Positions 2,985 through 18,550 of a DNA stretch of 24,288 bases are shown here, piece by piece. The DNA lies in the IMG/VR virus record IMGVR_UViG_3300046472_000138. One strand, written 5' to 3'. The position numbers and the translations under genes were made by a program. Source of the DNA: an uncultured virus (IMG/VR IMGVR_UViG_3300046472_000138) (lineage: Duplodnaviria; Heunggongvirae; Uroviricota; Caudoviricetes). Numbering within the stretch: the first letter of the stretch is position 1; every line of letters begins with the position of its first letter. Under the pieces are notes generated by a model. That model saw only the letters and a program-made list of their open reading frames with translations, searched no databases and had not been told where the DNA came from.

Positions 2985-3127
2985 AAAATTATCCACCTAC
3001 CTATACCGGCCAAATTCAATGCGCTGTCTGTGCAAAGAAAATTAAGTTTTGGATTAAAATAATCGGGATTGAAATATATTGCCAAGATTGCTGTGATTGG
3101 GTAATTGATTTTTTGAAGTCGCACTAA
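2981..3127 (+). CDS. 48 aa zinc-finger-like protein (not in the ORF track)
   Basis: Manual translation MKNYPPTYTGQIQCAVCAKKIKFWIKIIGIEIYCQDCCDWVIDFLKSH has two CxxC motifs. ATGA overlap. Confidence 0.6.
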   Translation: MKNYPPTYTGQIQCAVCAKKIKFWIKIIGIEIYCQDCCDWVIDFLKSH

Positions 3128-3184
3128 CAAAATTTATTCGGTTTATTCCGAGCTGCGCGGCCCGGGATAGCCCAAAAGCAGTAC

Positions 3185-3233
3185 AGAAAAAGCCTCTTTC
3201 CTTGATCAAGGGGGAAGGGGCTTTTTCTATTTT
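3185..3233 (+). terminator. Intrinsic terminator-like hairpin, possibly bidirectional
   Basis: AGAAAAAGCCTCTTTCC...GGGAAGGGGCTTTTTCT inverted repeat with G-U pairs, followed by ATTTT. Confidence 0.75.
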
Positions 3234-3247
3234 GGGAGTAAATAAAT

Positions 3248-4480
3248 ATGTGGCAACCAGTCAGAGTCGTGAATCCGTACAATCCGAGAAGTAGAAAACA
3301 TTTTTGGACATTTGAGGGTAAGCCTGGATACCGACCTAAGCACGTTAGTTATGTAACTGGAAAAAGAGCTCCTGCTTGGTCTTTTGGTCAGAGTCCAGCC
3401 GCAAAATCATTGAGGAGGCATAAAAAGAAACTCAGAAAAAGTGGGAGTCTTTTCAATCCCACTCGTCGTCGCAATCAAGACATTGTGACCGGCGCAATTG
3501 CAAGCAAGATAGCGGATCAGGTGGCAGGAAAACTCGGCGGGATGTTTGGGAAGCCAAGGAAGAAGAAGGCGGCAACAAAGCGCAGACCACGGCGCAATCC
3601 AGCTTTAGCAGTGATCGGACTGAATCCTAGCAAACCTAAAAGGAGAGTCAAAATGGCAACTAGGCGAAGGAGAAAACGAAATCTCCCAAGGCGTAATGCT
3701 AAGGGTCGGTTCGTTAAGAAGGCTTCAACAACACGCAGGCGAAGAAAATCAAATCCAGTTCATCGACGCAGACGAAGACGCGTCGCTAATCCCATTAAGC
3801 ATCGCCGTAGGCGGCATGTCCGAACTACGCGACGGCGCAGACGTACTAATCCGGTTCGGGCAATCCGCAGACGAAGGAGATCACCTGTTATGGCACATCG
3901 AAGACGCAGGCGGAAAGCAAACCCCGTGCGACATCATCGTCGTCGTCGGCGGGCTGCTGCCGCTGTAGTGAATCGGCATCACAGAAGGCGAAGAGCATCA
4001 AATCCACGGAGTTATAGTCGAAGTCGGCGTGGCCGTCGGCGTAATGCAATGCTCGGCGGGACGTTTTCAAGAATCGATTGGAAGTCAGTGCTTTTTGTTA
4101 GTGGCGGGGTCTTCTTGGGAGACAAACTCACCGGCCTTGTCAGTGACAAGATTATGAGCATGACAACCATGATTCCTAGCACAGCAGGGCCGTGGGTTAA
4201 ATTGGCTGTCGGAGTATTGGCGGCTGGCTTGGCCTGGAAATACCAGCCCGCGTTTGGCTTAGGCATAGCAGTCGGAGCAACCAATTCCTTGATGAACCAA
4301 TATGTCTTTGGTCCGGCATGGGGCTATGTTGCACCATCAATCGGGATGTCTGGCTTGGCTGACTACCAGAATCGGGCATTCAAACAAGATAACTGGATCG
4401 GGCAAAGTTCAGGCGGACCAGGGGCAGCGGGAACGATGTCTGGATTCGGGATGAATCCTTTGCTTCAAAATACGCTGTAA
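3248..4480 (+). CDS. Arg-rich, protamine-like putative genome-condensing/core protein with NP motifs and a hydrophobic C-terminal domain
   Basis: GGGAG RBS. Poly-Arg tracts separated by NP. C-terminal hydrophobic segments such as WVKLAVGVLAAGLAW and FGLGIAVGA. Confidence 0.8.
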   Translation: MWQPVRVVNPYNPRSRKHFWTFEGKPGYRPKHVSYVTGKRAPAWSFGQSPAAKSLRRHKKKLRKSGSLFNPTRRRNQDIVTGAIASKIADQVAGKLGGMFGKPRKKKAATKRRPRRNPALAVIGLNPSKPKRRVKMATRRRRKRNLPRRNAKGRFVKKASTTRRRRKSNPVHRRRRRRVANPIKHRRRRHVRTTRRRRRTNPVRAIRRRRRSPVMAHRRRRRKANPVRHHRRRRRAAAAVVNRHHRRRRASNPRSYSRSRRGRRRNAMLGGTFSRIDWKSVLFVSGGVFLGDKLTGLVSDKIMSMTTMIPSTAGPWVKLAVGVLAAGLAWKYQPAFGLGIAVGATNSLMNQYVFGPAWGYVAPSIGMSGLADYQNRAFKQDNWIGQSSGGPGAAGTMSGFGMNPLLQNTL

Positions 4481-4492
4481 AAATCCGAGAAG

Positions 4493-4580
4493 GAATTATC
4501 AGGGGCTTAAACGGAAGGGATCGAAAGGTTCTCAGCTTTGGGGAGAAGTCCTCTTTGCAAATTTAAGCCTCTGGCAATTC
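4493..4580 (+). promoter_or_regulatory. Structured intergenic RNA element upstream of the putative major capsid gene
   Basis: 4493-4511 pairs with 4562-4580 at 18 of 19 positions (2 G-U). The stem encloses a GAAA-tetraloop hairpin. Confidence 0.6.
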
Positions 4581-4607
4581 TCTCTTTAAAAATGAGAGGA
4601 GATTTAA

Positions 4608-5345
4608 ATGCAAATCATCAGGAAATTCAGAAACATCATTGAAGATGTCTTAGGCGTGCGTTTCAACGCTCGGCTGACAGACCTCGAATACCGAAAACAC
4701 GGGAAACCAATTTCACATTTCGATTCATTGGCCGGGGAAGGGCAAGTCACTTTCCATGACGCAATGGACATGGGCAAGACAAACCCAACCTATACCGGCG
4801 TAGTTGAAGCGATTGACCGGCCTTTGTTCGATACCACGTTTATCGTATCAGGCACAACCACCGGGCAATTGCTTTTCACGGCTCCGCAAGGCACAAACAG
4901 CAAATCACAGCTTGACACTAATCTGACTCAATCCAGGTCTTTGCCTTCGCCTGAGAGTTTCACAATCAAGCGAATTGGCTACCAGATCCAGACAACCTCC
5001 CTGATTGACATGGGGAAGATTCAAAATCTGATCCTTCAGAGTTTCTTTGCGAACCAGAAACTCTACAGCCAGGCTCCATTGGTCTACTACCCTGTAGGCT
5101 TCGGGGTTTACGGTTGCACGACTGAATCAAACATTTCAGCAATCACAAGCGGTATCCCAGGAGAAAATGGGGTTCGTAGCTTAGTCTATGACATTCCTTT
5201 GAATCCTCTCGATCCGTTCTATGCTCAACTCGATGTATACGGCGGCGGCTCATCGGCGGCCCATACCATCTCAACCTTGACTTTGACCACAACCACGACT
5301 CAAATCGTGGTCTATTTGCAGGGTCCGTACCAGAGAGCAATCTAG
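4608..5345 (+). CDS. Putative major capsid protein (single jelly-roll-like)
   Basis: Strong GAGGAG RBS. Beta-strand pattern (PLFDT...TN...LPSPESFTIKRI...VVYLQG). Followed by a stable hairpin, as often seen after highly expressed capsid genes. The fold is inferred. Confidence 0.55.
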   Translation: MQIIRKFRNIIEDVLGVRFNARLTDLEYRKHGKPISHFDSLAGEGQVTFHDAMDMGKTNPTYTGVVEAIDRPLFDTTFIVSGTTTGQLLFTAPQGTNSKSQLDTNLTQSRSLPSPESFTIKRIGYQIQTTSLIDMGKIQNLILQSFFANQKLYSQAPLVYYPVGFGVYGCTTESNISAITSGIPGENGVRSLVYDIPLNPLDPFYAQLDVYGGGSSAAHTISTLTLTTTTTQIVVYLQGPYQRAI

Positions 5346-5369
5346 TTCTTTGGTTGTTTCGTTTTATTT

Positions 5370-5397
5370 GGGGGAGTTTCGGCTCCCCCTTCATTTC
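5370..5397 (+). terminator. UUCG hairpin with a weak U-tract (leaky terminator or mRNA stabiliser)
   Basis: GGGGGAGT-TTCG-GCTCCCCC followed by TTCATTT. Confidence 0.65.
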
Positions 5398-5420
5398 ACG
5401 TTTTCATTTGAGGTGTAACC

Positions 5421-5834
5421 GTGTTAGCAAACGATCTTGTAGGTCAAAAAGGTTTATTCAACTTCGTCGGCACGATCACCTTAGCCGGAAATGCATTCGG
5501 AAACGTGATCATGCAGGTCAATCAAGGGTTGGATTACAAAGTAGTTTGTATCCAGACAGTGCAAACCGGAGTGTGGAAAGTTATCTGGGGAACAAATACG
5601 ATCAATTTCATGGCAAGCGGTCAGCAAAATGCCACGACTCCCCCTTATTGCACTTACACCAATGTGTTTGGAACTGCTATACTTCCGCATCGGTATGTTG
5701 GTCCTGGATATGACTATGCACCAATCTTCCCGCGTGGATCAAACATGGTTTTCAATTGTCAGGATACAAGCGGCTCTACCAATACGATTGAGATTGTAGT
5801 TGAAGGCATTTACGATAACTGGCTAGGTCAATAA
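5421..5834 (+). CDS. Putative small jelly-roll capsid protein
   Basis: GAGGTG RBS with a GTG start. All-beta pattern ending IEIVVEG. Confidence 0.55.
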   Translation: MLANDLVGQKGLFNFVGTITLAGNAFGNVIMQVNQGLDYKVVCIQTVQTGVWKVIWGTNTINFMASGQQNATTPPYCTYTNVFGTAILPHRYVGPGYDYAPIFPRGSNMVFNCQDTSGSTNTIEIVVEGIYDNWLGQ

Positions 5835-5836
5835 TT

Positions 5837-6928
5837 ATGATCGGTGCAGATAGAGCAGCGCGGGGGATTACTTCTCTTCAATCCTCGCATATTTTTCATA
5901 TCCCATTCAATTTTGCCACTATCACGACAGGGACAGAGCAGACCTTTCGCGTGGCTGTCAATCAAGGGGATATGCTTGTCTTTGGTTTAGCTATCTGGGA
6001 TTCAGATTCCACGACTCAACAACTCGGCGCACAGAATACGAGCCAGTATTGGGTGAAGATTACCAATCGAGAATACAATCAAAGCCTGATGTCCACTTGG
6101 GTTGCTGGTCTTGGGATTCTTGAGACAGACGCACAGAGCGGAGGATTTCGGTTTCCTTCACCTTGGTTTGTCAGGAATGGAACATATCTTGATGTAACCG
6201 TGAGATGTCCAGGCCAAAACGAGTTAAAGAATACTTCTGCGACTTATACGATTACTGCGCTAGAAATCGTTTTACTCGCCCAAGTCTTCCCGCGAGGCTA
6301 TGAAAAGGAATTCGGCAGGAAAGCACCAATCAAGCAGCCATTCTTTCTCTCCTACATGGCTCCAATCGGTTTCCAGGCCGATTCGACTTCAGGGAATAAT
6401 ATTGTCACTACGACAGGCTCACAGCAATTGTATCCAGCCTTTCAAGCCTCTTGGCCTCCGCTGATGTGGGATTTTGAATTGACAAGCATTTCGATGGATT
6501 CATCAACTCTTCAGACAACGAATCCGGCAGGGTCAGGGACAGGCTACCCGGCCAACCTGCATATGCTTCAGGTGATCGAACGAAAATCAAAAAGAATGGC
6601 TTTCCGTGGTCCTTGCACTCAAGCCAATGTTGCAGGGAGCCGGATACAAGATGCCTGTGATGCTTATGCCTTGAGTGCTGTTCCAACTGGACTCAACCCA
6701 ACGGATGCCTACACGCACAATTTGGCCGTTCCGTTCTATTGTAAGAAGGGCAGTCAATTAACAGCCAAGGCAAGTTTCAATTGGGTTTATATCAATGATG
6801 CTGGAATCAGCTTTCAACCATCGAATGTGAATCAAGTAGTGAATGTAGTCTTAATGGGGAACAAGTTCGAGAATCCCGATCGGTTTCCAGGGACAGGCCC
6901 ATTTAGTCAACCTCCGACTTATGCTTAG
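5837..6928 (+). CDS. Putative capsid/vertex protein with two tandem jelly-roll-like domains
   Basis: The two halves share motifs: PWFVRNGTYLDV...LEIVLLA and PFYCKKGSQLTA...VNVVLMG. Confidence 0.5.
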   Translation: MIGADRAARGITSLQSSHIFHIPFNFATITTGTEQTFRVAVNQGDMLVFGLAIWDSDSTTQQLGAQNTSQYWVKITNREYNQSLMSTWVAGLGILETDAQSGGFRFPSPWFVRNGTYLDVTVRCPGQNELKNTSATYTITALEIVLLAQVFPRGYEKEFGRKAPIKQPFFLSYMAPIGFQADSTSGNNIVTTTGSQQLYPAFQASWPPLMWDFELTSISMDSSTLQTTNPAGSGTGYPANLHMLQVIERKSKRMAFRGPCTQANVAGSRIQDACDAYALSAVPTGLNPTDAYTHNLAVPFYCKKGSQLTAKASFNWVYINDAGISFQPSNVNQVVNVVLMGNKFENPDRFPGTGPFSQPPTYA

Positions 6929-7592
6929 ACAAGATACACAAGCAGTAGCCTCAGACAGAGAAATGATTGCAATGCCGCTTGACTCGATCATTCAGGCGAT
7001 TCAAGGCGTGAACAATTTTCTCTGCTGTGTAAGGACTCCAAACCTCGTTGAGAATGCGATTCCTTACAATGCAATGCCGTTTTGGTTTTCAGGGGAGCTG
7101 TTTCAATTTAGTACCCATTTTACAATCTTTCCGGTCTTCAATGTTCCGTTCGGCCAAACCGCAGTCATTACAGGAATTGGTTTAGGAGAGCATCAACCTG
7201 GACTCGCAGCAGGATTCCGAGTTTCGTTGTTAATCAATAGTGAAACTACTCCGGCCTTCCCACGTATTTCTGGCTTGCTTGGGCTTGGAACAGGGATGCC
7301 ACTTCAGACCTGGATTCCGGTCCCTGAATCGGCTCAAGTTGCTCTTGCGCTCGATTGCCCTTGGATCATCAACACCTTCGCTGAAACGCCTTTAGAATTC
7401 GGGGTGCAATGGTCCTTGAGAGGCTACTATATGGACAAAGAGTTTTTCGTTCCAAGTTATGATAATTCTGCTGTACCTCAAGGGATGACTCCAGGGACGG
7501 ACAGTTACCCGAATATCAATTACCTAACTTACCAGATCCCTGAAGCAGACACAGCAACTACAACGCCTGACAATTTGATGCCAACAACTTAA
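6921..7592 (+). CDS. Putative jelly-roll minor capsid/penton-like protein
   Basis: Beta-rich core (VPFGQTAVITGIG...WIPVPESAQVAL...WSLRGYY) with a Thr/Pro tail. Confidence 0.5.
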   Translation: MLRQDTQAVASDREMIAMPLDSIIQAIQGVNNFLCCVRTPNLVENAIPYNAMPFWFSGELFQFSTHFTIFPVFNVPFGQTAVITGIGLGEHQPGLAAGFRVSLLINSETTPAFPRISGLLGLGTGMPLQTWIPVPESAQVALALDCPWIINTFAETPLEFGVQWSLRGYYMDKEFFVPSYDNSAVPQGMTPGTDSYPNINYLTYQIPEADTATTTPDNLMPTT

Positions 7593-7593: not shown

Positions 7594-8034
7594 ATGGGTA
7601 CTGAATTAGCTAATTTCGGACAACAAAACTACGATCCCCCTTCAGTGCTGGCAATCCCGCCACGCAATTTTGTTTGCGGGACGTTATCAATGTCCACAGG
7701 GGCGCAATCCACGCTATTTGGATTCGATCTTTGGGTAATCCCGCGGGGTGGAGCGGCAACCGGATTAGGTAGTTCAATTGCCTCAGGACCGGCAGCGGGA
7801 TTAAATCTTTTATTGAGTGTAAACTGCAATCAGTCTGGAGTGACCTTTGTTCCGCAGGTTCAATTCGGGGATGGAGTATTCATTACGATGGTTCCTGGTG
7901 GAGTAATATTCCCAAGTGGGTTTTCTCAATATGAGTTAAAGGTTAATGGCGCATTCTTTAAAGGACTTGTGACTAGGGTTGCTTCGTCAACTACTGTGAT
8001 TACTTTCCACGCTTCGATGTTAGGGGATAATTAA
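7594..8034 (+). CDS. Putative virion structural protein (beta-rich)
   Basis: 146 aa, Gly/Ser/Thr rich, low charge, within the structural operon. Confidence 0.6.
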   Translation: MGTELANFGQQNYDPPSVLAIPPRNFVCGTLSMSTGAQSTLFGFDLWVIPRGGAATGLGSSIASGPAAGLNLLLSVNCNQSGVTFVPQVQFGDGVFITMVPGGVIFPSGFSQYELKVNGAFFKGLVTRVASSTTVITFHASMLGDN

Positions 8035-8801
8035 TGGCTGGAAATTATTTCTTAGATTATATCCGTTGCAAATTCGGAAAAGGTCAGACGGGCCGGACTG
8101 ATGATCCGATCATTTCAGTTGGTGGAATGAATGTTAGTGGGTCTTATGTTGGATTATCATTTGATGCTGCTGGATTTTTACTTGTTTCAGGTTCAGGTGG
8201 CGGCGGAGTACCTGTCACGATCACCGGAACACAAAGCACAAGAGTATTTGATAGTTCTGGAAACCCAGTCCTTGCCACTAATACCAACCCAATCGGGACA
8301 GAGCAAGGCTGGATCACACGTATTGCAGCAGCACAGGCTTTACAAGGTGGAACGGTTCAAGATAGCCCTGTGCTTGTCGGAGGTGAAGCTAGAACAACTG
8401 ATGGAACGACCTCCGCCAGTGCAACCCAACGCAGAATAATACTCGATTCACTTGGAAAGCTAGTTACTCTTCCAGGGGCGATTAATGATTTGCATCTTGA
8501 TGGGGCTGTATCGCAGGCTGGAGTCATCGCCACAGCTCTTATTGCCAATCAAGGCTCAGGAAAGCGCATTGCAATGCAATCCTTGCTTGTGACTTGCTCT
8601 GGCTCGGCAACGGTTCAAGTCATCATCAGTGGAGGGCCAAACAACCGCACGTTTGGATTTGCTGCTCCTGGCGGTGGATTTGCTCTCAATGCTGGTGGTG
8701 CACCTCTCTATATCACTTCTGCCTCAACTGCGTTATCCGTTGCAGGAGATGTGACCTCAACAATGGATATTTTCGCCTCTGGCTACTCTCTTGGTAACTA
8801 A
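8034..8801 (+). CDS. Putative spike/vertex structural protein
   Basis: Gly/Ser/Thr/Ala rich, with a GSGGGG linker and a beta-rich C-terminal domain. TAATG overlaps at both ends. Confidence 0.65.
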   Translation: MAGNYFLDYIRCKFGKGQTGRTDDPIISVGGMNVSGSYVGLSFDAAGFLLVSGSGGGGVPVTITGTQSTRVFDSSGNPVLATNTNPIGTEQGWITRIAAAQALQGGTVQDSPVLVGGEARTTDGTTSASATQRRIILDSLGKLVTLPGAINDLHLDGAVSQAGVIATALIANQGSGKRIAMQSLLVTCSGSATVQVIISGGPNNRTFGFAAPGGGFALNAGGAPLYITSASTALSVAGDVTSTMDIFASGYSLGN

Positions 8802-9850: not shown

Positions 9851-11545
9851 ATGGCCCTCTCCGCGAATACAATCTGGGAAATCCAAACTGGTGGTAGTGA
9901 TACCACTAATGGCGGCGGTTTCGATCCTTCCCAAACTGCCGGGATGTTTACAGATGGAGCGGCAACCCTGGCGACAAGTGCTGCTCCAGTCTTCACCTCT
10001 GCAAGTTATAACTTTGTTGCTGGTGATGTGGGCGCATGGGTCTATATTGCTAGTGGAACAAACTGGACTCCTGGATGGTACAAGATTGCTTCGGTTGCTG
10101 CGAATGCTGCGACACTCAATGCAACAATCGGATCAGCCAATTTAAAGCCTGCGGCTTCTTGTGGACCTACTCCTACAACTGCGACAGGATGTGCAACTGT
10201 TGCTTCCCCAACTGGAGCAACCTGGACCATTGATTACTCTCAAGGGACCAGTCCAATTTTCACCTATACCGATCTTGCATCGGTTGGTGCTGGATTAACA
10301 GTCACCTCAGCGGCTCATCCTTTCGGAAAACAGCAAGTCGGGAATGCAATCATCATTACAGGTGGAACTAATTTCACGGCAGGGGTTTATGTCATTGCCT
10401 CTGTTGCTGTTGTCACGGCGACTGTCGTAGGTCCAGGGAATATCACTTCAGGTGTTGGGGCTTCCGGTACTGGCAGTTTAGGAGGTTGCTTTGCAAGTCC
10501 TGGCTTTGCTGGATCGGTTGGGGTAGGTGGAAATCAGTACATGATTAAGTCCGGCACGTTCACGATCACTTCAGCCACTCAGAATATTGCCGCTGGCTGC
10601 TTTAAGCCGACAGGTGGGAATACAGGAGCAATGACTTACACAGAGGGTTATCAAACTGTTCGAGGAGATAGAGGGACAAGGCCAACCTTAATTTTAAATA
10701 CTGGTGTTTCGACTACTAAAATCGTCGATCTAACTTCAGCAACTTATCAACGATGTATCAACCTGATCATTGATGGTCATTCTGAAACCTCTTCTCAGGG
10801 ACTTTTAAGTGGAACCTTCACTTATATTGAATTGATCAAAGCCCAGAACTGCACGAATAGCGGAATTAGTCTGCCTGCCGGAGTAGCTGTAAGATGTGAA
10901 ACTACTGGATGCTCTACCCAACCAGCATTTTTAGCGAGTGTTGCTAGTGCCACAAACAATCTTCTATACGCTTGCGAATCTCATGGAAACACGGTTACTG
11001 GATTTTCGGCTGTAGGTAATCAGCTTGTAAACTGTATTTCTTATGCGAATTCAGGGGCTTCATCGGACGGTTTTTATACTGGAACAGCTAGGGGAGTTTT
11101 TATTAATTGTTCTTCATATAATAATGGGAGAGACGGGTTTAGAAATGATTCCGGGAATCCAGCGGCTTTTATTAATTGTATAGCTGAAGCCAATGTAGTC
11201 GGATTCAATAGTGACAATACAGCCGGAAACAATCCTTTCTTAATCAATTGTGCAGGATTCAATAATTCCGGTGGGAATTTCACCACAGCTAACTATGGTA
11301 ATGGGCAGGTGTTTGGATTTCTGGCTTTGACAGCGTCCCCATTTACAAGTCCAGGAACTGGAAATTTCGCGCTCAACAATACAGCAGGTGGAGGAGCGTC
11401 TGTTAAAGCGGTTGGTTCTCCTACGGTTTTCCCTTCAGGGACAACCAACAACTTCCTTGATCTTGGGGCAGCACAAGCAGCATGTAGTGCGGTCCTTGCT
11501 GTTGCTTCGGGTTTATTAAGACTTATTGGAGTTGGTCGATGGTAA
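9851..11545 (+). CDS. Putative spike/receptor-binding protein with a right-handed beta-helix
   Basis: Repeated NC(I/S/A)xxxN...GF units. Gly/Thr/Ala rich. Ends LRLIGVGRW. Confidence 0.75.
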   Translation: MALSANTIWEIQTGGSDTTNGGGFDPSQTAGMFTDGAATLATSAAPVFTSASYNFVAGDVGAWVYIASGTNWTPGWYKIASVAANAATLNATIGSANLKPAASCGPTPTTATGCATVASPTGATWTIDYSQGTSPIFTYTDLASVGAGLTVTSAAHPFGKQQVGNAIIITGGTNFTAGVYVIASVAVVTATVVGPGNITSGVGASGTGSLGGCFASPGFAGSVGVGGNQYMIKSGTFTITSATQNIAAGCFKPTGGNTGAMTYTEGYQTVRGDRGTRPTLILNTGVSTTKIVDLTSATYQRCINLIIDGHSETSSQGLLSGTFTYIELIKAQNCTNSGISLPAGVAVRCETTGCSTQPAFLASVASATNNLLYACESHGNTVTGFSAVGNQLVNCISYANSGASSDGFYTGTARGVFINCSSYNNGRDGFRNDSGNPAAFINCIAEANVVGFNSDNTAGNNPFLINCAGFNNSGGNFTTANYGNGQVFGFLALTASPFTSPGTGNFALNNTAGGGASVKAVGSPTVFPSGTTNNFLDLGAAQAACSAVLAVASGLLRLIGVGRW

Positions 11546-12888
11546 AATCTCTCTATTCTAGTATCATCATTATCTTCTTTTCACTTTCAATTCAGGCTAC
11601 TCCTATAGACGTTTCTCAACTTTCGACATCTGGGAATGGCAGCCAATCTTCCTGCTGGCAGGGTTGGGATACAGCAATCACATGGGTTGGAGAGCAGGAA
11701 TATTACTTTCCTGGTGGAGTCTATTGTTATTCCACTTCTCCAAATTTCCTGAAAACCGGGATTGCTTTGAGAGGCGAGGCGGGAACGATCCTCAAACATA
11801 CCGGCTCTGGGAATGCGGTCATCTTTGATGATCCTGGGGGCCTAACTCCTATTCAAGCCAATTGGGTTGCAAATGTCCGAATGGAAAATTTCATTATTCA
11901 GGGCAATACAGCTACAACCAATGGCTTATTTCTTCGCGGGGTTAGAAACGGAATTTTTAAACATATTTCCGTTAGAAACGTATCGAATGCTGGTCTTTGG
12001 TCTGAAGCCTGTGTAACCAATATCCTTGAGAACTTCAGGGTATCACATTGGGAAAATAATGCTGGTGGAATATGGAACGTCACTCCTGCCTATGGGATTG
12101 TCTTAGCCTCAAGAGGAATTGATGCAACGACGACCTGGACGATTGAAAATCCAGTGATTGAGGGCGTGTCGGGAATAGGGATATGGATACAAGTAGGCTG
12201 CTTCAGCAATACTCTCATTAATGGGACAGCAGAAGGAAACCCTGGCAAGGGTATTGTAATTCAATCCTATCGAAACACGATTATTAACACGGACTTTGAG
12301 GCGAATGTCGGAAATGATATTGAGATATCTGGGGATCGGAACGCTCTGATTAATGTCAGCAGTTCAAATAACCTCATTGTTTCTGCTGGAGCCGGAACTA
12401 AATTAATTGGTGGAAGTTTCCACAATATTTCCCTTAATGGACCGCACCAGTCTATTGTCATGGGAATCGATTATACTGGAACGTTCATCGATACAGACGA
12501 TCAATTCTCAACGATTAAAATGGCAAATGTCGGCCCAAGTTCAGATGGATATGTCCGCTATGATACGACGATTCGGAATCCAATTTCTCGCATGATTGCA
12601 CTAAATTCAAGTGGCAACGTAGTCAATTCGGATTGCCGGTTGGCATCTAGTTTCTATACAGCCGTTTATGCGAATTTCCTGTTGAGCAATCCCACTAATC
12701 CTACGAACGGGCAACGATTGACGTGGAGAATCCAGCAAGGCGGAGCAGGCGGGAATCAGATTATGTTTGGAAGCAAGTTTAGACCTAAAGCAGGTCAGCC
12801 ATTTCCAGTTCTTTCCACTCCGCTAAATTCTAATGATTATATTTCAGCCATCTACAATTCAACTTGGGACATATGGGATATCCAATAA
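11539..12888 (+). CDS. Pectin-lyase-like beta-helix protein with an N-terminal signal peptide
   Basis: YFPGGVY...IALRGEAGTILK start typical of pectate-lyase-3-like helices. Asn/Ile ladders. Hydrophobic N-terminus ending IQA. Confidence 0.75.
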   Translation: MVKSLYSSIIIIFFSLSIQATPIDVSQLSTSGNGSQSSCWQGWDTAITWVGEQEYYFPGGVYCYSTSPNFLKTGIALRGEAGTILKHTGSGNAVIFDDPGGLTPIQANWVANVRMENFIIQGNTATTNGLFLRGVRNGIFKHISVRNVSNAGLWSEACVTNILENFRVSHWENNAGGIWNVTPAYGIVLASRGIDATTTWTIENPVIEGVSGIGIWIQVGCFSNTLINGTAEGNPGKGIVIQSYRNTIINTDFEANVGNDIEISGDRNALINVSSSNNLIVSAGAGTKLIGGSFHNISLNGPHQSIVMGIDYTGTFIDTDDQFSTIKMANVGPSSDGYVRYDTTIRNPISRMIALNSSGNVVNSDCRLASSFYTAVYANFLLSNPTNPTNGQRLTWRIQQGGAGGNQIMFGSKFRPKAGQPFPVLSTPLNSNDYISAIYNSTWDIWDIQ

Positions 12889-14297
12889 AGAAGGTTAGCA
12901 TCATCACGGTTTGCCATAATCAGCTCGCACATACAAAGCGGTTTATCAAGAGCCTCATTCGATACACGCCGCAAGAGCCGATTGAGTGGGAGTTGATTTG
13001 CATTGATTCAGGATGCACTGATGAAACGGCTAAATATTTAATGGAACTACATAACGCTAATTCAACCCTGATTCCAAGCATTATTGGAGAGGGTGAAAAT
13101 ATTGGATGGATAAAGGGGATCAATCACGGATTGAAATTTGTTTCTGAAGATTCAGATATCGTTATCTTCTCCAATAACGATGTGGTCCTTGAAAAGACCG
13201 GGTGGTTGGAAACTCTCTGCAAGCACTTTACTGAATCAGTGGGAGCGGTTGGACCGACTTCAAATTATGTCATGGGAAGACAACAAGTCGAAAATAATGT
13301 GCCTGGAGTGACTGAGGAGGAAACAAGATTCTTAATTGGTTTCTTTATGGCAGTTCGGAAGGATGTTATCGACGAAATTGGACCTCTTGAAGAGAATCTA
13401 GCCGATTGGATGCCCGATGCTGATGAAGAGACAAAGCAGAAATTAGCCTTGGGTGGGGCTGATGACCTGGATTATTCAATCAGAATGCGGATTGCTGGTT
13501 ATCGGATGATGATTGCGCGGGATGTCTTTGTATGGCATTCAGGAAGTAAGACTTTCTTTGATGTTGTTGGGAAAGATGGCTATAACAACCAATGGAGGAC
13601 GGCAGATCAAGCACTATTGAATAAGTGGGGGCCGGAAGAACTCAATGAGTTATATGCTGCGCCTCTCAAGCTAGCTTTCGGAATTCCACTCCGAGGTTGG
13701 CATGTTCACTGGAAATTTGCTTCCAGCTTGAACCAAATGATTAAGCCTCCAAACTGGATGCAGATTGAAGCACCTCGCACAGTAGTTGACCATGCCAGGA
13801 ATCTAATCGTCCTGCAAGCCCAGAAAGACAATGCTAGTTATATTCTCTTTGTTGACGATGACCAGATTTTCCCGCGGGACTTGTTCTTTAGACTATTAGG
13901 GCATGGAAAGGAAGTGGTAGCGGCTCTCGCCTTTGGGCGGGTTGCTCCATACCGGCCTTGTGTCTATTCTTGGGAAACTTCGAGAGAAAACGGAAATCTG
14001 ATGGTTAGGGATCGGCCGGACCTGATTAGGACAGGATTACAGAAGGTGGATGCCGTCGGGATGGGTGCGATGCTCATTAGAATGGATGTTTTTAAGCGTT
14101 TGGGGCCGCAGCCTTGGTTTAAGTTTGATGAGGTGGGCGAAGACCTCACCTTCTGCGATAAATGCGCACAGAAGGGAATTCCGGTCTATTGCGACACCGA
14201 TCTAATCTTGCCTCACATCACCGATGAAGGGGTAGAGATTACGGATTATCATTTTGTTGAGTACCATAAATTTCAGAACCAACCAAAAGCAGTATGA
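12873..14297 (+). CDS. Tandem family 2 (GT-A) glycosyltransferase
   Basis: Domain 1: VSIITVCHN, IDSG, FSNND, DDLDY, VWH. Domain 2: LFVDDD, GMGAMLI, GEDLTFC. ATG at 12873 preferred over TTG at 12864. Confidence 0.9.
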   Translation: MGYPIKKVSIITVCHNQLAHTKRFIKSLIRYTPQEPIEWELICIDSGCTDETAKYLMELHNANSTLIPSIIGEGENIGWIKGINHGLKFVSEDSDIVIFSNNDVVLEKTGWLETLCKHFTESVGAVGPTSNYVMGRQQVENNVPGVTEEETRFLIGFFMAVRKDVIDEIGPLEENLADWMPDADEETKQKLALGGADDLDYSIRMRIAGYRMMIARDVFVWHSGSKTFFDVVGKDGYNNQWRTADQALLNKWGPEELNELYAAPLKLAFGIPLRGWHVHWKFASSLNQMIKPPNWMQIEAPRTVVDHARNLIVLQAQKDNASYILFVDDDQIFPRDLFFRLLGHGKEVVAALAFGRVAPYRPCVYSWETSRENGNLMVRDRPDLIRTGLQKVDAVGMGAMLIRMDVFKRLGPQPWFKFDEVGEDLTFCDKCAQKGIPVYCDTDLILPHITDEGVEITDYHFVEYHKFQNQPKAV

Positions 14298-14300: not shown

Positions 14301-15323
14301 ATGCACTTCAAGTTGCTCACAATTATAATATTCGTCCTGCTCTTGCTAGGGGGTTACTTTGGCAATCTTGCCGATGCTCAAACTATAACTGTAGCCAAAG
14401 GGACCGCAGTTGATACAATTGCCAAGGGGATCAGCCTACTCACTCCTGGCGGGACATTAATTGTTAATTCTGGCTCTTATGCTGAAATCATTGGGAACAT
14501 CCCTTCTGGTTCTTCTGATTCTCTCAGGACAACGGTTCAAGCCAATGGTGCAGTCGTCTGTAATGGGATCGATGTTTATAGCCGGAATTACATCACGGTC
14601 AGGGGATTCACATTTAATGGGTATACAAACCGAATAGGCCGATCAAGTGAAAGCAACGTACCTAGCACCTACATCACATTTGAGAATTGTATTGCTCAGA
14701 ATTGGGGCGGCGGCGGATCTGGCGGCGGTGGGTTTATGCCAGGCTTCCGACAATATGGAGTTTCTTGTTTCATCAAGCTAATTAATTGCTCGGCGCATAA
14801 TAATGGCTCAACAAGTCTCGATCATGGGGTTTATGTCTCAGGTCGGGACATTACAGTTCAAGGCGGCAGCTATTACGGGAATTCAGGGCATGGAATCCAG
14901 GTTTTTTCATCTTCTGGGGCTGGCTCAACAAATAATAGCTTAGTTCAAGGAGTTGAATCTCACGATAATGGATCATTTGGGATTGGGCTTTATTCAGGCG
15001 TAAACCTTCGGGCAATTGGGAATAAGGTCTATAACAATGGGAAGATTATCTCCGGTTCAGGTCAACTCAGAATCGACTATGGAGCTATTTCGGCAGTGGT
15101 TCAAAACAATGATATTTGCGGGACAAATCCTATTGTGGACAATGGAACAAATACTCAGAAATCTAACAACACTTGTGGGGGTGTAGTGATTCCAAGTCCA
15201 CCAGTGACAACAGTTCCTCCACCATCAAATTTAAATACTCCTCCTGCGGCTAGTTCTGGAATCTCTCCGATGGTTTTGGCTGCTGGAGCAGGGGTCTTGT
15301 TATTGATTATGTCAGGCGAGTAA
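14301..15323 (+). CDS. Type I membrane beta-helix protein (signal peptide, beta-helix, Pro-rich linker, C-terminal TM)
   Basis: Signal peptide ending ADA. DHGVY, GHGIQ and SFGIG rungs. PSPPVTTVPPP linker. MVLAAGAGVLLLIM anchor. Confidence 0.8.
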   Translation: MHFKLLTIIIFVLLLLGGYFGNLADAQTITVAKGTAVDTIAKGISLLTPGGTLIVNSGSYAEIIGNIPSGSSDSLRTTVQANGAVVCNGIDVYSRNYITVRGFTFNGYTNRIGRSSESNVPSTYITFENCIAQNWGGGGSGGGGFMPGFRQYGVSCFIKLINCSAHNNGSTSLDHGVYVSGRDITVQGGSYYGNSGHGIQVFSSSGAGSTNNSLVQGVESHDNGSFGIGLYSGVNLRAIGNKVYNNGKIISGSGQLRIDYGAISAVVQNNDICGTNPIVDNGTNTQKSNNTCGGVVIPSPPVTTVPPPSNLNTPPAASSGISPMVLAAGAGVLLLIMSGE

Positions 15324-15502
15324 TGTTTAAGGATTCAACCAATCAGGAAGTCTTAGGCACATGTGATGTATGCCACAAACAGAAAATGGTGTCTTATTGT
15401 CCATTATGCAAGGCGTGGCTGTGTGATCAATGTCAACGAGATTGGGCAGGTAGGGGGTTAGCTGCCCTAAAAAGATTTTTGGATTATGGCCGAGCAATTT
15501 AA
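15323..15502 (+). CDS. 59 aa Cys-rich, B-box-like zinc-binding protein (not in the ORF track)
   Basis: Manual translation contains CDVC-x8-CPLC-x4-CDQC. TAATG overlap with the upstream stop. Confidence 0.65.
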   Translation: MFKDSTNQEVLGTCDVCHKQKMVSYCPLCKAWLCDQCQRDWAGRGLAALKRFLDYGRAI

Positions 15503-15836
15503 ACATACCGTTTCCCTCAAAAAATACATGCGCGGCCACCAAAAAGAGACAGAACTCAGGTGGAAAGCGCATAGAAGAGAACATGAATTGATGGAAAAGG
15601 CTTTAGGCAAGGCAGAAGAGGCGATGGGTACAAGGCTAGCTGCCATGAATGAATTTAGAGCCGCATTAGAGAATCGGGAGAACGCTTTTGCCACTAAAGA
15701 AACTTTGCAGGTAGCAAGTGATCGGGTGGATGATCTGGAGAAGTTCAGAGACCGATTTATAGGGGTTATTTTCGGAATAACTGCCTTAAATGCTTTTGTT
15801 TCCTATCTAATCATTAAGCTTCTTGGATTAAAGTAA
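15486..15836 (+). CDS. Coiled-coil protein with a C-terminal TM (holin-like or membrane virion protein)
   Basis: Charged helical body and FIGVIFGITALNAFVSYLII anchor. Directly upstream of the muramidase. Confidence 0.7.
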   Translation: MAEQFKHTVSLKKYMRGHQKETELRWKAHRREHELMEKALGKAEEAMGTRLAAMNEFRAALENRENAFATKETLQVASDRVDDLEKFRDRFIGVIFGITALNAFVSYLIIKLLGLK

Positions 15837-15837: not shown

Positions 15838-16416
15838 ATGCCAAGCCTTAGCGACATTCAAAATCTGATCATACAAGATGCGACTCAGCAAGGGTTAAAT
15901 CCTGCCTTGGCCTTGGCGGTTGCTGAGGCTGAGAGCGCATTTAATCCAGGCGCGGTTAGTCCGGTTGGCGCGGTTGGGGTGTTTCAATTGATGCCTGCGA
16001 CGGCTGGGGATTTAGGGGTTGATCCTTACGATTGGCAACAAAACATCGACGGAGGGACAAGATACCTTTCCAGCCTATCAAGTCATTACCCTGGGCGACC
16101 TGATTTGATCCTAGCGGCTTATAATTGGGGGCTTGGGAATGTCAATCGGATGATTTGGGGAAGTACAGGATTTCCACCAGGGCAAACGATACAAGCGTTC
16201 TCGACCTCGCAGGTCATGGGAAGCGTACCGGCCGAAACTTCAGCCTATATCAATCGTGTTACTTCCCTGATGGTCAAATGGTCAAATGATCCGATCTTGA
16301 TTGGTGTGCCAGGAACAGATAATGGTGGCGGGGTTGACATCACAAATGGGGATCAGTTAGTTATCATCGGGGTTGTTGTGGGGGTGATGTTGCTTTGGGT
16401 GATGCTAAAGAGGTAA
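15838..16416 (+). CDS. Lytic transglycosylase (SLT family) with a C-terminal membrane anchor
   Basis: AES catalytic Glu motif, GVFQLMP, AAYNWG, ETSAYI. C-terminal LVIIGVVVGVMLLWVMLKR. Confidence 0.92.
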   Translation: MPSLSDIQNLIIQDATQQGLNPALALAVAEAESAFNPGAVSPVGAVGVFQLMPATAGDLGVDPYDWQQNIDGGTRYLSSLSSHYPGRPDLILAAYNWGLGNVNRMIWGSTGFPPGQTIQAFSTSQVMGSVPAETSAYINRVTSLMVKWSNDPILIGVPGTDNGGGVDITNGDQLVIIGVVVGVMLLWVMLKR

Positions 16417-16626
16417 TTTCCATTCCATGTCTTCTTCCTTGCAGCCTGTATAAACAATCTTTTCTCCATCATATACGGTAGCCCTGGGATCAATAAATAT
16501 AGTCTGTTTCCCATCATCAATAAATGGATTGCTTATTTTTTGACCTTTAAACGGAGGAAGCAAAGAAAGATTTCCAGTTACATTAAGCTCCTTTCCGCTC
16601 GGATAGATGATGTGGTAATTTCTCAT
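16405..16626 (-). CDS. Hypothetical protein
   Basis: ATGA coupling and GGAG upstream. The 3' end overlaps the convergent SLT gene. Confidence 0.6.
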   Translation of the reverse strand: MRNYHIIYPSGKELNVTGNLSLLPPFKGQKISNPFIDDGKQTIFIDPRATVYDGEKIVYTGCKEEDMEWKLPL

Positions 16627-16877
16627 TCCTTCTCCTCCTCAACCTCAACCTTGTAAGTGCCATTCTGCATGGCATTCCTTAGCTCAACCATTGACAGCCT
16701 AGCCTCTTTCTCTGAGTCGTATTCGCGGCTGATGATGTCTGAGCGGTCAAGGTCTAGGATGTTCACAACATAGAATCCGGCATCATTCTTGGCTATCCTA
16801 ATAAAGTGCGTGACAGGTTGATGACCAAGAGGAGTAATAAGTTCTTTTTGTTTATGTTTGAATTTGAAGAGGCTCAT
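16623..16877 (-). CDS. Hypothetical protein
   Basis: Start at 16877 (MSLFKF) preferred because of GGAGGGG and ATGA coupling. Confidence 0.65.
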   Translation of the reverse strand: MSLFKFKHKQKELITPLGHQPVTHFIRIAKNDAGFYVVNILDLDRSDIISREYDSEKEARLSMVELRNAMQNGTYKVEVEEEKE

Positions 16878-18064: not shown

Positions 18065-18065
18065 T

Positions 18066-18188: not shown

Positions 18189-18193
18189 ATGGT

Positions 18194-18460: not shown

Positions 18461-18550
18461 ATTATTCCTTTACACTCGTTTTTGCGCTCGGTGTGCCCCG
18501 CTAGTGCCCATTAGGTAGATTGGTTGGAAGCACAGGGCATCACCTGCCTT

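What the first reader, a model, noticed from the sequence alone, without database searches (positions are those of the whole stretch)
3248..4480. Protamine-like polyprotein: poly-Arg blocks punctuated by Asn-Pro and fused to a membrane domain
Seen: 11 NP dipeptides, and 10 of the 15 Asn in the basic region are followed by Pro. They divide it into short Arg-rich units (KSNP-VHRRRRRRVANP-IKHRRRR...RTNP...KANP...ASNP). The C-terminal ~140 aa is Gly-rich and hydrophobic, and the gene sits directly before the putative major capsid gene. Known: adenovirus condenses its DNA with proteolytically matured basic core proteins (pVII, mu). Inference: a genome-condensing protein tethered to an internal membrane, with NP as cleavage or turn sites. 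A nucleoprotein core of this kind would be unusual for a bacterial dsDNA virus.
Basis: partly seen in the sequence, partly recalled or inferred. Interest (0 to 1): 0.8.

Follow-up and report, generated by a model that had tools for sequence, protein, structure and literature searches.

The report
Arginine-rich core protein, soil virus
A real, conserved gene of an uncultured soil bacterial virus encodes a protein with a roughly +100-charged arginine arm studded with Asn-Pro pairs and joined to a greasy, glycine-rich end; it most likely binds and compacts the viral DNA inside the particle, a job not described for cultured bacterial viruses.

Summary
ORF 3248-4480 (+) encodes 410 aa with 77 Arg and 32 Lys. 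It has 11 Asn-Pro pairs, and 10 of the 15 Asn in residues 1-270 are followed by Pro (0 of 20,000 shuffles reach this). The other 22 ORFs show 21 of 328. The gene is real. About 30 metagenomic relatives share one architecture: an N-terminal W-x-x-[IV]-R-V-A-N-P motif, an amphipathic helix, a 'RRNP-x-LA-x-IG-x-NP' motif, an invariant internal Met, an Arg arm of +72 to +150, a near-invariant R-R-N junction and a ~140-aa Gly-rich hydrophobic domain. No Pfam, PHROG or PDB family matches it. The next gene folds as a jelly roll, with Sulfolobus polyhedral virus 1 capsid protein as best match at middling scores. The two genes lie between terminator-like hairpins. The window holds no terminase, portal or HK97 capsid match and no Walker A motif, but it is incomplete. 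Best reading (about 0.5): an abundant internal DNA-neutralising protein anchored by its C-domain. The 'membrane domain' is unproven, because its hydrophobic segments are too weak for classical transmembrane helices. Cleavage at Asn-Pro is untested, and a turn or helix-cap role fits as well. No processing protease was found.

The parts
3194..3220 (+). Terminator-like hairpin followed by a T-run, 27 nt before the start codon. It marks the upstream edge of the two-gene unit.
   Evidence: Consensus scan, (10 pairs, 4 G-C); sequence read. A pattern match only.
3248..4480 (+). The gene: 410-aa Arg-rich protein (P0001). A GGGAG Shine-Dalgarno-like site lies 9 nt before the ATG.
   Evidence: Conserved in relatives.
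3248..3286 (+). N-terminal motif, residues 1-13 (M-W-Q-P-V-R-V-V-N-P-Y-N-P). The family consensus is M-A-W-Q-T-I-R-V-A-N-P.
   Evidence: Alignment A5. The N-termini printed show it in 14 of 17 records. P0037 has it after an upstream extension, and P0056 lacks it.
3290..3460 (+). Variable basic module, residues 15-71 ([FY]-x-T-x-E-G ... K-S-x-x-R-H-x-K-K ... S-G-x-x-x-N-P). Relatives carry 0 to about 5 copies of it.
   Evidence: Sequences; alignment. One contig of run X23 skips 3289->3470 (180 nt, in frame), a weak hint.
3473..3544 (+). Conserved amphipathic segment, residues 76-99 (N-Q-D-I-V-T-G-A-I-A-S-K-I-A-D-Q-V-A-G-K-L...). It holds 2 of the 3 acidic residues found in residues 1-266.
   Evidence: Alignment A5, columns about 210-240. 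Hydrophobic moment 0.60.
3590..3628 (+). Motif R-R-N-P-A-L-A-V-I-G-L-N-P, residues 115-127. The family consensus is R-R-N-P-H-L-A-L-I-G-x-N-P.
   Evidence: Alignment A5. Also present in the 5'-open frame of L001.
3640..3655 (+). AAGGAG (3640-3645) followed by the in-frame ATG of Met136 (3653-3655): a candidate internal start for a nested short form of 275 aa.
   Evidence: The Met is present in 17 of 17 full or near-full-length relatives. L001 has GGAG at the same distance. Caveat: AGG and AGA Arg codons create SD-like strings at 5 places in the gene.
3653..4045 (+). Arg arm proper, residues 136-266: the R-N-A-K-G-R-F-V-K motif, then Arg runs separated by short spacers, 5 of which contain NP.
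4037..4045 (+). R-R-N junction (residues 264-266) directly before the C-domain.
   Evidence: R264 and N266 are columns at 90% or more in the 29-sequence alignment A5. The regex finds R-[RH]-N in 17 of 17 records.
4046..4477 (+). C-terminal Gly-rich hydrophobic domain, residues 267-410. It has three hydrophobic segments (about 280-298, 314-332 and 335-354) and a polar tail (D-Y-x-x-R-x-[WF]-K-x-D-N-W ... N-x-L-L-x-x-x-L). Invariant residues: G287, G291, K293, G322, P334, G339, G343.
4608..5345 (+). Neighbouring 245-aa gene, a jelly-roll and capsid-like protein. AGGAG lies 8 nt before its ATG.
   Evidence: 30 homologues. AlphaFold2 with alignment A2 gave pLDDT 59 with a beta core at residues 64-245. 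Foldseek and VIA both rank SPV1 chain 6oj0_Z first.
5370..5389 (+). G+C-rich terminator-like hairpin just after the 245-aa gene. It marks the downstream edge of the two-gene unit.
   Evidence: A hairpin of the same kind sits at the same place in L001 (1650-1671), although the DNA is only about 70% identical.

Best explanation
P0001 is an abundant late structural protein of an uncultured soil bacterial virus that is probably tailless and has a jelly-roll shell. Its Arg/Lys arm (net +98 over residues 1-266) binds the phosphate backbone of the packaged dsDNA and neutralises and compacts it. The conserved Gly-rich hydrophobic C-domain fixes the arm to an inner layer of the particle. That layer would be a lipid layer if the virus has one; otherwise it is the underside of the shell, or a bundle of C-domains. 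The Asn-Pro pairs act as structural punctuation (Asx-Pro turns or helix caps), breaking the arm into short Arg-rich units that can follow the DNA. The invariant internal Met probably gives a second, nested product consisting of the Arg arm plus the C-domain. Shown here: the gene, its conservation, its architecture, the NP excess, its synteny with a jelly-roll gene, and the flanking hairpins. Inferred: virion location, DNA binding, the anchoring mode, the role of NP, and the nested product.
For: (1) The gene is real and under selection. It is 77% identical in protein and about 70% in DNA to L001. Relatives were found by three searches: 3, 14 with E <= 0.001 among 1.84 billion representatives and 12. 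Longer members sit in the clusters of the short records.
(2) Charge. The arm carries +72 to +150 net in the 17 full or near-full-length members, with only 3 acidic residues in 266 here. This is the size of charge seen in nucleic-acid-binding arms of virus proteins (PMC7096446, abstract in the search listing only).
(3) Position. The gene is first in a two-gene unit with a jelly-roll protein, bracketed by terminator-like hairpins. The downstream hairpin recurs in L001. The order Arg-rich gene, 245-aa, 137-aa, about 350-aa gene is the same in L001.
(4) Capsid-like neighbour. The AlphaFold2 model has a beta-sandwich core. Its only Foldseek PDB match at E <= 0.001 is the Sulfolobus polyhedral virus 1 particle (6oj0_Z, E 3e-4). 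VIA-align ranks the same chain first (Z 7.2, rmsd 4.0, 131 aligned), followed by jelly-roll capsid proteins of SPMV, HHIV-2, FLiP and PRD1.
(5) The window lacks tailed-phage head genes. Of 23 ORFs, 0 hit terminase, portal or HK97-type capsid families in PHROGs or Pfam. No Walker A motif occurs in any of the six frames. tblastn found no match in 50,697 phage records for the C-domain, the 245-aa or the 363-aa protein.
(6) NP is selected. The excess reaches shuffle p <= 0.001 in 16 of 17 members, and 116 of 288 Asn are followed by Pro. NP mostly sits just before an Arg run, and 52 of 112 residues after NP are Arg. That is the position expected for a helix N-cap or an Asx-Pro turn (established helix-capping statistics, recalled).
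(7) There is a precedent for a nucleoprotein core inside a lipid layer and a single-jelly-roll shell: Portogloboviridae (PMC8459092, passages read).
Against: There is no direct evidence that the protein is in virions or binds DNA.
The jelly-roll match is middling. The model has pLDDT 59. No PDB chain reached Z >= 8, and the tool notes that best Z values of 7-8 are typical for models without a true match.
The C-domain's hydrophobic segments are much weaker than the window's own membrane segments, so membrane anchoring is unproven.
The window is only part of the genome, since relatives sit on contigs of 45.5 to 47.5 kb. A packaging ATPase, portal or protease may lie outside it, which leaves 'tailless' provisional.
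One ORF (11539-12888) matches a PHROG annotated 'tail protein' through a beta-helix.
NP is not needed for the arm as such. In the arm-only records of distant members it is not enriched (P0035 p 0.22, P0039 p 0.20, P0047 with no NP).
SD-like strings are frequent in this gene because of AGG and AGA Arg codons, so the internal start rests mainly on the invariant Met.
Confidence: 0.5

Rival explanations
1. Self-processing or protease-processed core polyprotein. The chain is cut at Asn|Pro (and perhaps at the R-R-N junction), releasing free Arg-rich peptides of 12-27 aa that condense DNA like adenovirus mu. The hydrophobic C-domain is released as a separate product.
For: NP pairs fall at module borders. 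Cutting at every N|P in residues 1-270 gives pieces of 9, 3, 58, 47, 9, 43, 12, 20, 24 and 27 aa, each with net charge 0 to +22. The R-R-N junction is near-invariant. Autocleavage of an Asn-Pro bond through attack by the Asn side chain is documented for aquareovirus VP5 and reovirus mu1 (Asn42-Pro43) and for bacterial RsgI (PMC9148132 and PMC10328401, passages read). Adenovirus core precursors are matured by a viral protease (PMC4246237, abstract in the listing only).
Against: The known Asn-Pro autocleavages need a folded catalytic environment, whereas this arm is low-complexity and probably unfolded when alone. No protease family was found among the 23 ORFs. NP positions in the arm are not conserved between subfamilies, and in distant members the spacer starts N-[A/T/V]. 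The residue after the junction Asn varies (A, P, I, F, M). The adenoviral-type [MIL]-x-G-G|x motif (recalled) fits only the window's M-L-G-G-T, not the relatives' A-G-I-G-G or A-G-L-G-G.
Confidence: 0.13
2. DNA-delivery (pilot or ejection) protein. The hydrophobic Gly-rich C-domain inserts into the host envelope to form or line a conduit, and the Arg arm holds the genome end and escorts it into the cell.
For: It combines a DNA-binding arm with a Gly-zipper-like hydrophobic hairpin (G-x-x-x-G spacing, invariant P334 in the turn). It lies in the structural block, and a transglycosylase with a C-terminal membrane anchor lies in the same module (15838-16416).
Against: A charge of +100 and arm lengths varying from 213 to 477 residues suit bulk neutralisation better than a defined pilot role. 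Placement in a terminator-bracketed unit with the capsid-like gene suggests high copy number. No similarity to any known ejection or pilot protein family was found.
Confidence: 0.12
3. Shell-lining cement, tape-measure or lipid-binding protein. The short conserved hydrophobic motifs dock under capsomers, and the Arg runs bind anionic lipid head groups or acidic capsid surfaces rather than DNA.
For: The protein has several short conserved anchor-like motifs separated by basic linkers of variable length, and its length varies from 361 to 619 aa. Extended minor proteins line the inside of jelly-roll capsids in PRD1 and chloroviruses (recalled).
Against: The variable length and variable module number argue against a ruler. 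The charge density far exceeds what I recall for known cement proteins. No membrane or acidic partner was identified here.
Confidence: 0.1
4. A non-structural protein, for example a lysis, host-takeover or nucleoid-disrupting factor, that merely lies beside the structural genes.
For: Arg-rich peptides can damage membranes and compact nucleoids (general knowledge). No virion data exist.
Against: Synteny with the jelly-roll gene is conserved. The gene is co-bracketed by hairpins with that gene. A separate transglycosylase module lies 11 kb downstream. The multi-motif architecture is conserved.
Confidence: 0.05

Closest known systems
Adenovirus core proteins pVII, V and pX/mu, matured by the adenovirus protease (PMC7998265, PMC4246237, PMC5491326; abstracts in the search listing only)
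   Same: They are Arg-rich, histone- or protamine-like proteins packed with a dsDNA genome inside a jelly-roll-shelled icosahedral particle. Small basic peptides are a possible end product.
   Different: There is no sequence relation (no Pfam hit). No adenovirus-type protease was found in the window. The adenoviral proteins have no hydrophobic C-domain. The host here is bacterial (RecT, resolvase, SLT and Shine-Dalgarno sites).
Portogloboviridae (Sulfolobus polyhedral virus 1): VP1 nucleoprotein core inside a lipid layer and a single-jelly-roll shell (PMC8459092, passages read)
   Same: This is the only prokaryotic-virus precedent I found for a nucleoprotein core under a lipid layer and a jelly-roll capsid. 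Its capsid chain is also the best structural match of the neighbouring 245-aa protein.
   Different: It infects an archaeal hyperthermophile and has a 20-kb genome. VP1 was not compared here, so homology is untested. The structural match is middling (TM 0.31/0.40, Z 7.2).
Arg-rich terminal arms of icosahedral capsid proteins (PMC7096446, abstract in the listing only), and the small basic J protein of phiX174-type phages (recalled)
   Same: A positively charged, poorly conserved arm neutralises the packaged nucleic acid and is tethered to the particle through a hydrophobic or folded part.
   Different: In those viruses the arm is part of the coat protein, or is a protein of about 40 aa in small ssDNA or ssRNA viruses. 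Here it is a separate protein of 361-619 aa carrying about +100, in a dsDNA virus of about 45 kb.
Asn-Pro autocleaving proteins: reovirus mu1 and aquareovirus VP5 (Asn42-Pro43), and the bacterial anti-sigma factor RsgI (PMC9148132, PMC10328401; passages read)
   Same: Conserved Asn-Pro dipeptides in a virus structural protein.
   Different: Those proteins have a single site inside a folded domain. Here there are 10 or more sites in a low-complexity arm, and cleavage is untested.
Baculovirus P6.9 and the basic DNA-associated proteins of chloroviruses (PMC5899202, PMC3281028; abstracts in the listings only)
   Same: Protamine-like or basic virion proteins that condense large dsDNA genomes. Chloroviruses also have an internal membrane.
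   Different: They belong to eukaryotic viruses, show no sequence relation and have no fused hydrophobic domain.

Membership tests
Adenovirus-type core proteins (pVII, pX/mu) | Sequence membership in the adenoviral core protein families | tested here: not met
   Pfam-A scans of the whole protein and of both halves gave no such hit, even at E up to 10 for the halves.
Adenovirus-type core proteins (pVII, pX/mu) | Highly basic, Arg-rich chain able to neutralise DNA | tested here: met
   77 Arg, 32 Lys, 8 acidic residues; +98 net over residues 1-266.
Adenovirus-type core proteins (pVII, pX/mu) | Maturation by a cognate virus protease at a conserved consensus site | tested here: inconclusive
   No protease family was found among 23 ORFs, but the window is only part of the genome. 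The recalled [MIL]-x-G-G|x motif fits the window's sequence but not its relatives.
Adenovirus-type core proteins (pVII, pX/mu) | Presence in the virion core, bound to DNA | not testable with these tools
   Needs particles or purified protein.
   The best 19-mers in 6 family members sum to +4.3 to +6.4 (KD 1.17-1.53). Seven clear membrane segments of other window ORFs sum to -1.4 to +2.8. The scale values are recalled and no dedicated predictor was available. Short hairpin or monotopic insertion is not excluded.
Asn-Pro autocleaving proteins (reovirus mu1/VP5, RsgI) | Conserved Asn-Pro at the scissile bond | tested here: inconclusive
   NP is strongly enriched (16 of 17 members). NP positions in the N-terminal motifs are conserved, but those in the arm shift between subfamilies.
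Asn-Pro autocleaving proteins (reovirus mu1/VP5, RsgI) | Folded environment that activates the Asn side chain; observed cleavage products | not testable with these tools
No proteomic data exist.
Jelly-roll capsid proteins of membrane-containing viruses (for the neighbour 4608-5345) | Eight-stranded beta-sandwich matching solved capsid proteins | tested here: inconclusive
   The model has pLDDT 59 and pTM 0.53. The best matches are SPV1 6oj0_Z (Foldseek E 3e-4; VIA Z 7.2) and other capsid jelly rolls at Z 5.5-6.8. No chain reached Z >= 8, and non-viral sandwiches score alike. A profile search of PDB sequences gave nothing below E 0.31.
Tailed phages (Caudoviricetes) | Terminase, portal and HK97-fold capsid genes | tested here: inconclusive
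   0 of 23 ORFs hit such families and the window has no Walker A motif. However, 24.3 kb is only about half of the 45-47 kb contigs of relatives.

The most novel reading that the evidence does not exclude
A lineage of soil bacterial viruses packages dsDNA as a nucleoprotein rather than as naked DNA driven in by a motor. The Arg-rich protein would co-condense with the genome, its Asn-Pro bonds would self-cleave once DNA-bound or assembled to leave mu-like peptides, and the jelly-roll shell (with or without lipid) would form around this core. This would be the bacterial counterpart of adenovirus and portoglobovirus cores.
Probability: 0.12. Interest if true: 0.9.

Novelty: new variant of a known kind. 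Interest (0 to 1): 0.68.

Why it matters
Textbook bacterial dsDNA viruses hold naked DNA, pumped in by a motor and neutralised by small cations. Protein-condensed genomes are known from eukaryotic viruses (adenovirus, baculovirus, chlorovirus) and from a few archaeal viruses. A conserved protein carrying about +100 charge, encoded beside the capsid-like gene of a bacterial virus, would mean that nucleoprotein cores also exist among bacterial viruses. That bears on how such particles assemble, how much DNA they can hold, how the DNA leaves the particle, and how adenovirus-like cores evolved. The family has no Pfam, PHROG or PDB relative. It is absent from the 50,697 deposited phage genomes and from the viral-contig collection searched, so it marks a virus group that current annotation misses. 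The Asn-Pro punctuation gives a simple bench test: look for peptides that end in Asn or begin with Pro.

Tried and rejected
1. Whole-genome context: no genome is held for this window.
2. Related DNA: four scans of viral contigs and two of genome contigs confirmed no relative. The one metagenome scan gave a single 3,266-nt locus, L001. megablast of the whole window against the phage collection found nothing.
3. AlphaFold2 of the 363-aa protein (5837-6925) from a single sequence failed (pLDDT 38). This used one of the two jobs, so P0001 itself was never folded.
4. Complex prediction of the 245-aa protein with the C-domain (residues 262-410): verdict 'no answer', score 0.00 in two runs, controls not run. 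This is no evidence either way.
5. Sequencing runs: no RNA holder is listed, which says nothing about expression. Laid contigs are identical across the gene in three runs, so they give no variation to analyse.
6. Tandem Repeats Finder on 3000-4700 gave 0 rows. The repeats exist only at the protein level.
7. The ESM Atlas gave only unnamed viral clusters: 0.97 for the 245-aa protein, with PM2 P2 and PRD1 P3 capsid families at 0.75-0.77 as leads only, and 0.90-0.92 for the C-domain.
8. BFVD Foldseek gave 4 matches at E <= 0.001, all unnamed or uncharacterised.
9. A Shine-Dalgarno site as proof of the internal start was rejected as insufficient on its own, because AGG and AGA Arg codons create such strings at 5 places in the gene.
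10. The idea that the gene is only 263-275 aa, as in database entries P0002-4, P0035, P0039, P0043, P0044 and P0047, was rejected. L001's frame is open to the contig edge with conserved upstream residues. The clusters of P0003, P0035, P0047 and P0041 also contain members of 381-494 aa from longer contigs.
11. Row dropped: P0045 (4,225 aa, 10 short matched stretches) was left out of all alignments as a probable Gly-rich low-complexity match.
12. Literature: searches found no paper describing this protein family or an Arg-rich core protein in a bacterial virus. Subscription-only papers are not covered.
Full report
THE OBSERVATION

ORF 3248-4480 (+) translates to 410 residues without a stop. It holds 77 Arg, 32 Lys, 7 Asp and 1 Glu. 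It has 11 Asn-Pro dipeptides, at residues 9, 12, 70, 117, 126, 169, 181, 201, 225, 252 and 403. In residues 1-270, 10 of 15 Asn are followed by Pro, and 0 of 20,000 residue shuffles reach that count. The excess is specific to this gene. In the other 22 ORFs of the window only 21 of 328 Asn precede Pro (15.3 expected), against 11 of 21 here (1.4 expected). Residues 271-410 are Gly-rich (22 Gly) and moderately hydrophobic. No DNA tandem repeat underlies the pattern.

THE GENE IS REAL AND LONGER THAN MOST DATABASE ENTRIES SUGGEST

- A word-based search with the C-domain found three close relatives of 263-267 aa. These start at the equivalent of Met136.
- The one related DNA locus I could fetch (L001, 3,266 nt) shows that the frame is open to the contig edge. 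The upstream residues (I-G-L-N-P-S-K-P-K-R-R) are conserved, so that record is cut by the contig end.
- An exhaustive HMMER search of 1.84 billion representatives found 14 proteins at E <= 0.001. A profile search for longer proteins found 12.
- The clusters of four short records also contain members of 381-494 aa.
- Against L001 the protein is 77% identical while the DNA is about 70% identical. The gene order is the same: Arg-rich gene, then genes of 245, 137 and about 350 aa.

FAMILY ARCHITECTURE (29-sequence alignment A5; counts on the 17 full or near-full-length members)

The 12 records cut at the N-terminus and the 4,225-aa P0045 were left out of these counts. The parts, in order, are:

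1. An N-terminal motif M-A-W-Q-T-I-R-V-A-N-P, here M-W-Q-P-V-R-V-V-N-P, seen in 14 of 17.
2. A basic module ([FY]-x-T-x-E-G ... K-S-x-x-R-H-x-K-K ... S-G-x-x-x-N-P), present in 0 to about 5 copies.
3. An amphipathic segment (N-x-L-T-D-x-x-A-G-D-I-A-S-K-V...).
4. The motif R-R-N-P-H-L-A-L-I-G-x-N-P.
5. An internal Met (Met136 here), present in 17 of 17 and followed by R-N-A-K-G-R-F-V-K.
6. The Arg arm. Net charge of everything before the C-domain is +72 to +150.
7. An R-[RH]-N junction in 17 of 17. R264 and N266 are columns at 90% or more in A5.
8. A C-domain of about 140 aa, with invariant G287, G291, K293, G322, P334, G339 and G343 and a polar tail.

No Pfam, PHROG or PDB-sequence family matches any part.

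ASN-PRO ACROSS THE FAMILY

The NP excess reaches shuffle p <= 0.001 in 16 of 17 members; P0056 is the exception (p 0.39). Of 288 Asn, 116 are followed by Pro. The residue after NP is Arg in 52 of 112 cases. After runs of three or more Arg, the commonest next residue is Asn (34 of 96). A typical spacer therefore reads R-run, N, a few small hydrophobic residues, N-P, R-run.

In arm-only records of distant members NP is not enriched (P0035 has 1 NP among 9 Asn, p 0.22; P0039 p 0.20; P0043 p 0.09; P0047 has none). NP positions in the arm also shift between subfamilies. Asn at the end of Arg runs and at the junction is more constant than the Pro.

From general helix-capping and Asx-Pro-turn statistics (recalled, not tested), N-P just before an Arg run is what a helix N-cap or turn would look like.

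THE C-DOMAIN IS NOT A CLEAR MEMBRANE DOMAIN

On a Hessa-type scale (values recalled), the best 19-residue windows of six family members sum to +4.3 to +6.4. The hydrophobic segments of seven other ORFs in the same window sum to -1.4 to +2.8. Kyte-Doolittle means are 1.17-1.53 against 1.05-2.39. The segments are about 12-15 residues long, rich in Gly with G-x-x-x-G spacing, and carry conserved Lys or Asp. A short helical hairpin, a monotopic insertion or a protein-protein bundle all remain possible.

THE SURROUNDINGS

- The 245-aa neighbour has 30 homologues at 45-92% identity, on contigs of up to 42,441 nt.
- AlphaFold2 with that alignment gave pLDDT 59 and pTM 0.53, with an eight-strand beta core over residues 64-245.
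- Its only Foldseek PDB match at E <= 0.001 is a chain of the Sulfolobus polyhedral virus 1 particle (6oj0_Z, E 3e-4, TM 0.31/0.40).
- VIA-align over 48,161 chains ranks the same chain first (Z 7.2, rmsd 4.0, 131 aligned). Next come satellite panicum mosaic virus (6.8), HHIV-2 (6.7), FLiP (6.2), phiCjT23 and PRD1 (5.5). No chain reaches Z 8, non-viral sandwiches score alike, and the tool warns that a best Z of 7-8 is common without true kinship. I therefore call this protein 'capsid-like jelly roll' and nothing stronger.
- P0001 and this gene are bracketed by terminator-like hairpins at 3194-3220 and 5370-5389. The downstream hairpin recurs at the same place in L001. That fits a separately and highly expressed two-gene unit; this is an inference.
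- Among 23 ORFs, none hits terminase, portal or HK97-type capsid families. One beta-helix protein hits a PHROG labelled 'tail protein'. There are also a GT2 glycosyltransferase, an SLT transglycosylase with a C-terminal membrane anchor, a resolvase, RecT and a DNA methyltransferase.
- No Walker A motif occurs in any frame.
- The C-domain, the 245-aa and the 363-aa proteins have no tblastn match in 50,697 phage records. RecT matches 604 records, which places the element in the bacterial-virus gene pool.
- The window has no terminal repeat. At 24.3 kb it is about half the length of the largest contigs of relatives (45,519 to 47,537 nt). Absence of a packaging motor therefore cannot be claimed.
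- The stretch 3248-6928 is held nearly word for word by all 24 listed runs, all labelled soil or rhizosphere metagenomes. Of these, 22 are flagged as possible sources, so at most two are independent.

HOW IT MOST LIKELY WORKS

I commit, at about 0.5, to the following. P0001 is an abundant internal virion protein. Its arm neutralises and compacts the dsDNA, and its C-domain fixes it to an inner layer of the particle.

As an order-of-magnitude inference, a genome of about 46 kb carries about 92,000 phosphate charges. At +98 per chain, about 300 copies would neutralise a third of them. That number is compatible with one or a few chains per capsomer.

The invariant Met136 has an AAGGAG 8 nt upstream here and a GGAG at the same distance in L001. 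This suggests a nested short product (arm plus C-domain) alongside the long form that carries the three N-terminal motifs. The SD-like string alone is weak evidence, because AGG and AGA codons make five such strings in this gene.

The rivals are cleavage at Asn-Pro into mu-like peptides (0.13), a DNA-delivery protein (0.12), a shell-lining or lipid-binding protein (0.10) and a non-structural role (0.05).

Asn-Pro autocleavage has real precedents in aquareovirus VP5, reovirus mu1 and bacterial RsgI (PMC9148132 and PMC10328401, passages read). In each of those it is a single site inside a folded domain.

COMPARISON WITH WHAT IS KNOWN

- Functionally the nearest analogues are the adenovirus core proteins VII, V and mu (PMC7998265, PMC4246237, PMC5491326; listing abstracts only).
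- Among prokaryotic viruses the nearest is the VP1 nucleoprotein core of Portogloboviridae, which lies under a lipid layer and a single-jelly-roll shell (PMC8459092, passages read).
- Arg-rich arms of small icosahedral viruses follow the same charge logic (PMC7096446, listing abstract only).
- P0001 is a sequence member of none of these.
- Five literature searches found no description of this family or of an Arg-rich core protein in a bacterial virus. Subscription journals are not covered.
- This scan's own earlier notes list at least eight similar 'Arg-rich arm plus hydrophobic domain' genes in uncultured tailless viruses of 58-161 kb. Two mention NP motifs and one mentions nested sizes. These are unchecked AI notes. 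A sequence look-up found no look-alike stretch to the present C-domain, so kinship with them is untested. They suggest the theme is recurrent rather than unique to this window.

VERDICT

Novelty: a new variant of a known kind. Virus core or condensing proteins are known, but this family, its architecture and its occurrence in a bacterial virus are not. Interest 0.68.

Noticed in passing
window 5370-5389 and L001 1650-1671: A G+C-rich terminator-like hairpin (GGGGGAG...CTCCCCC plus a T-rich tail) sits right after the 245-aa capsid-like gene. It recurs at the same place in the related locus although the DNA is only about 70% identical. It is probably an attenuator that sets the level of the two upstream genes above the rest of the module.
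   Followed up: partly
window 3289-3470: One contig of run X23 joins 3289 to 3470, skipping 180 nt (60 codons, in frame). That would remove exactly the variable basic module, which is present or absent among relatives. It rests on a single contig with a side of 30 letters, so it is weak. A second joint (3627->4022, 394 nt) is not in frame.
   Followed up: no
window 1-24288: No Walker A motif ([AG]xxxxGK[ST]) occurs in any of the six frames of the 24.3-kb window, and no ORF matches a packaging ATPase, terminase or portal. The window is incomplete, so this is only a flag for whoever obtains the full genome.
   Followed up: partly
window 5421-5834, 5837-6928, 6921-7592, 7594-8034, 8034-8801: Five consecutive genes after the capsid-like gene have no family match. 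The first two are syntenic in L001 (77% and 57% identity). They may be further shell, vertex or sub-shell proteins. The 363-aa one could not be modelled from a single sequence.
   Followed up: partly
window 9851-11545, 11539-12888, 14301-15323: Three Gly/Asn/Thr-rich proteins that look like beta-helices. Pfam Beta_helix and a 'tail protein' PHROG match only the second. The third has a signal-peptide-like N-terminus and a C-terminal hydrophobic anchor. They are candidate host-recognition spikes or depolymerases.
   Followed up: no
window 12864-14297: A 477-aa protein with two GT2-type glycosyltransferase regions (Pfam Glycos_transf_2 at E 3e-20; a GtrB-like PHROG) sits in the middle of the structural block. 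It may be a surface-modifying moron or a virion glycosylation enzyme.
   Followed up: no
window 15838-16416: An SLT lytic transglycosylase (Pfam E 7e-24) carries a strongly hydrophobic C-terminal segment (residues 173-191). A small coiled-coil protein with a C-terminal anchor precedes it (15486-15836). The pair looks like a membrane-tethered entry or lysis enzyme.
   Followed up: no
window 16405-24288, minus strand: A leftward block holds a serine recombinase/resolvase (17507-18145), a DNA methyltransferase (21417-22283), RecT (22175-23305) and many small ORFs. It is the replication, recombination and possibly lysogeny side of the element.
   Followed up: no
window 3248-6928: This stretch is held nearly word for word (share 0.96-1.00) by all 24 listed runs, all labelled soil or rhizosphere metagenomes. 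Of these, 22 are flagged as possible sources.
   Followed up: partly
protein P0045: A 4,225-aa protein matched the Gly-rich hairpin region of the C-domain in 10 short stretches (E 1.8e-11). It is probably low-complexity Gly/Ala-rich repeats. It was not examined and was left out of the alignments.
   Followed up: no
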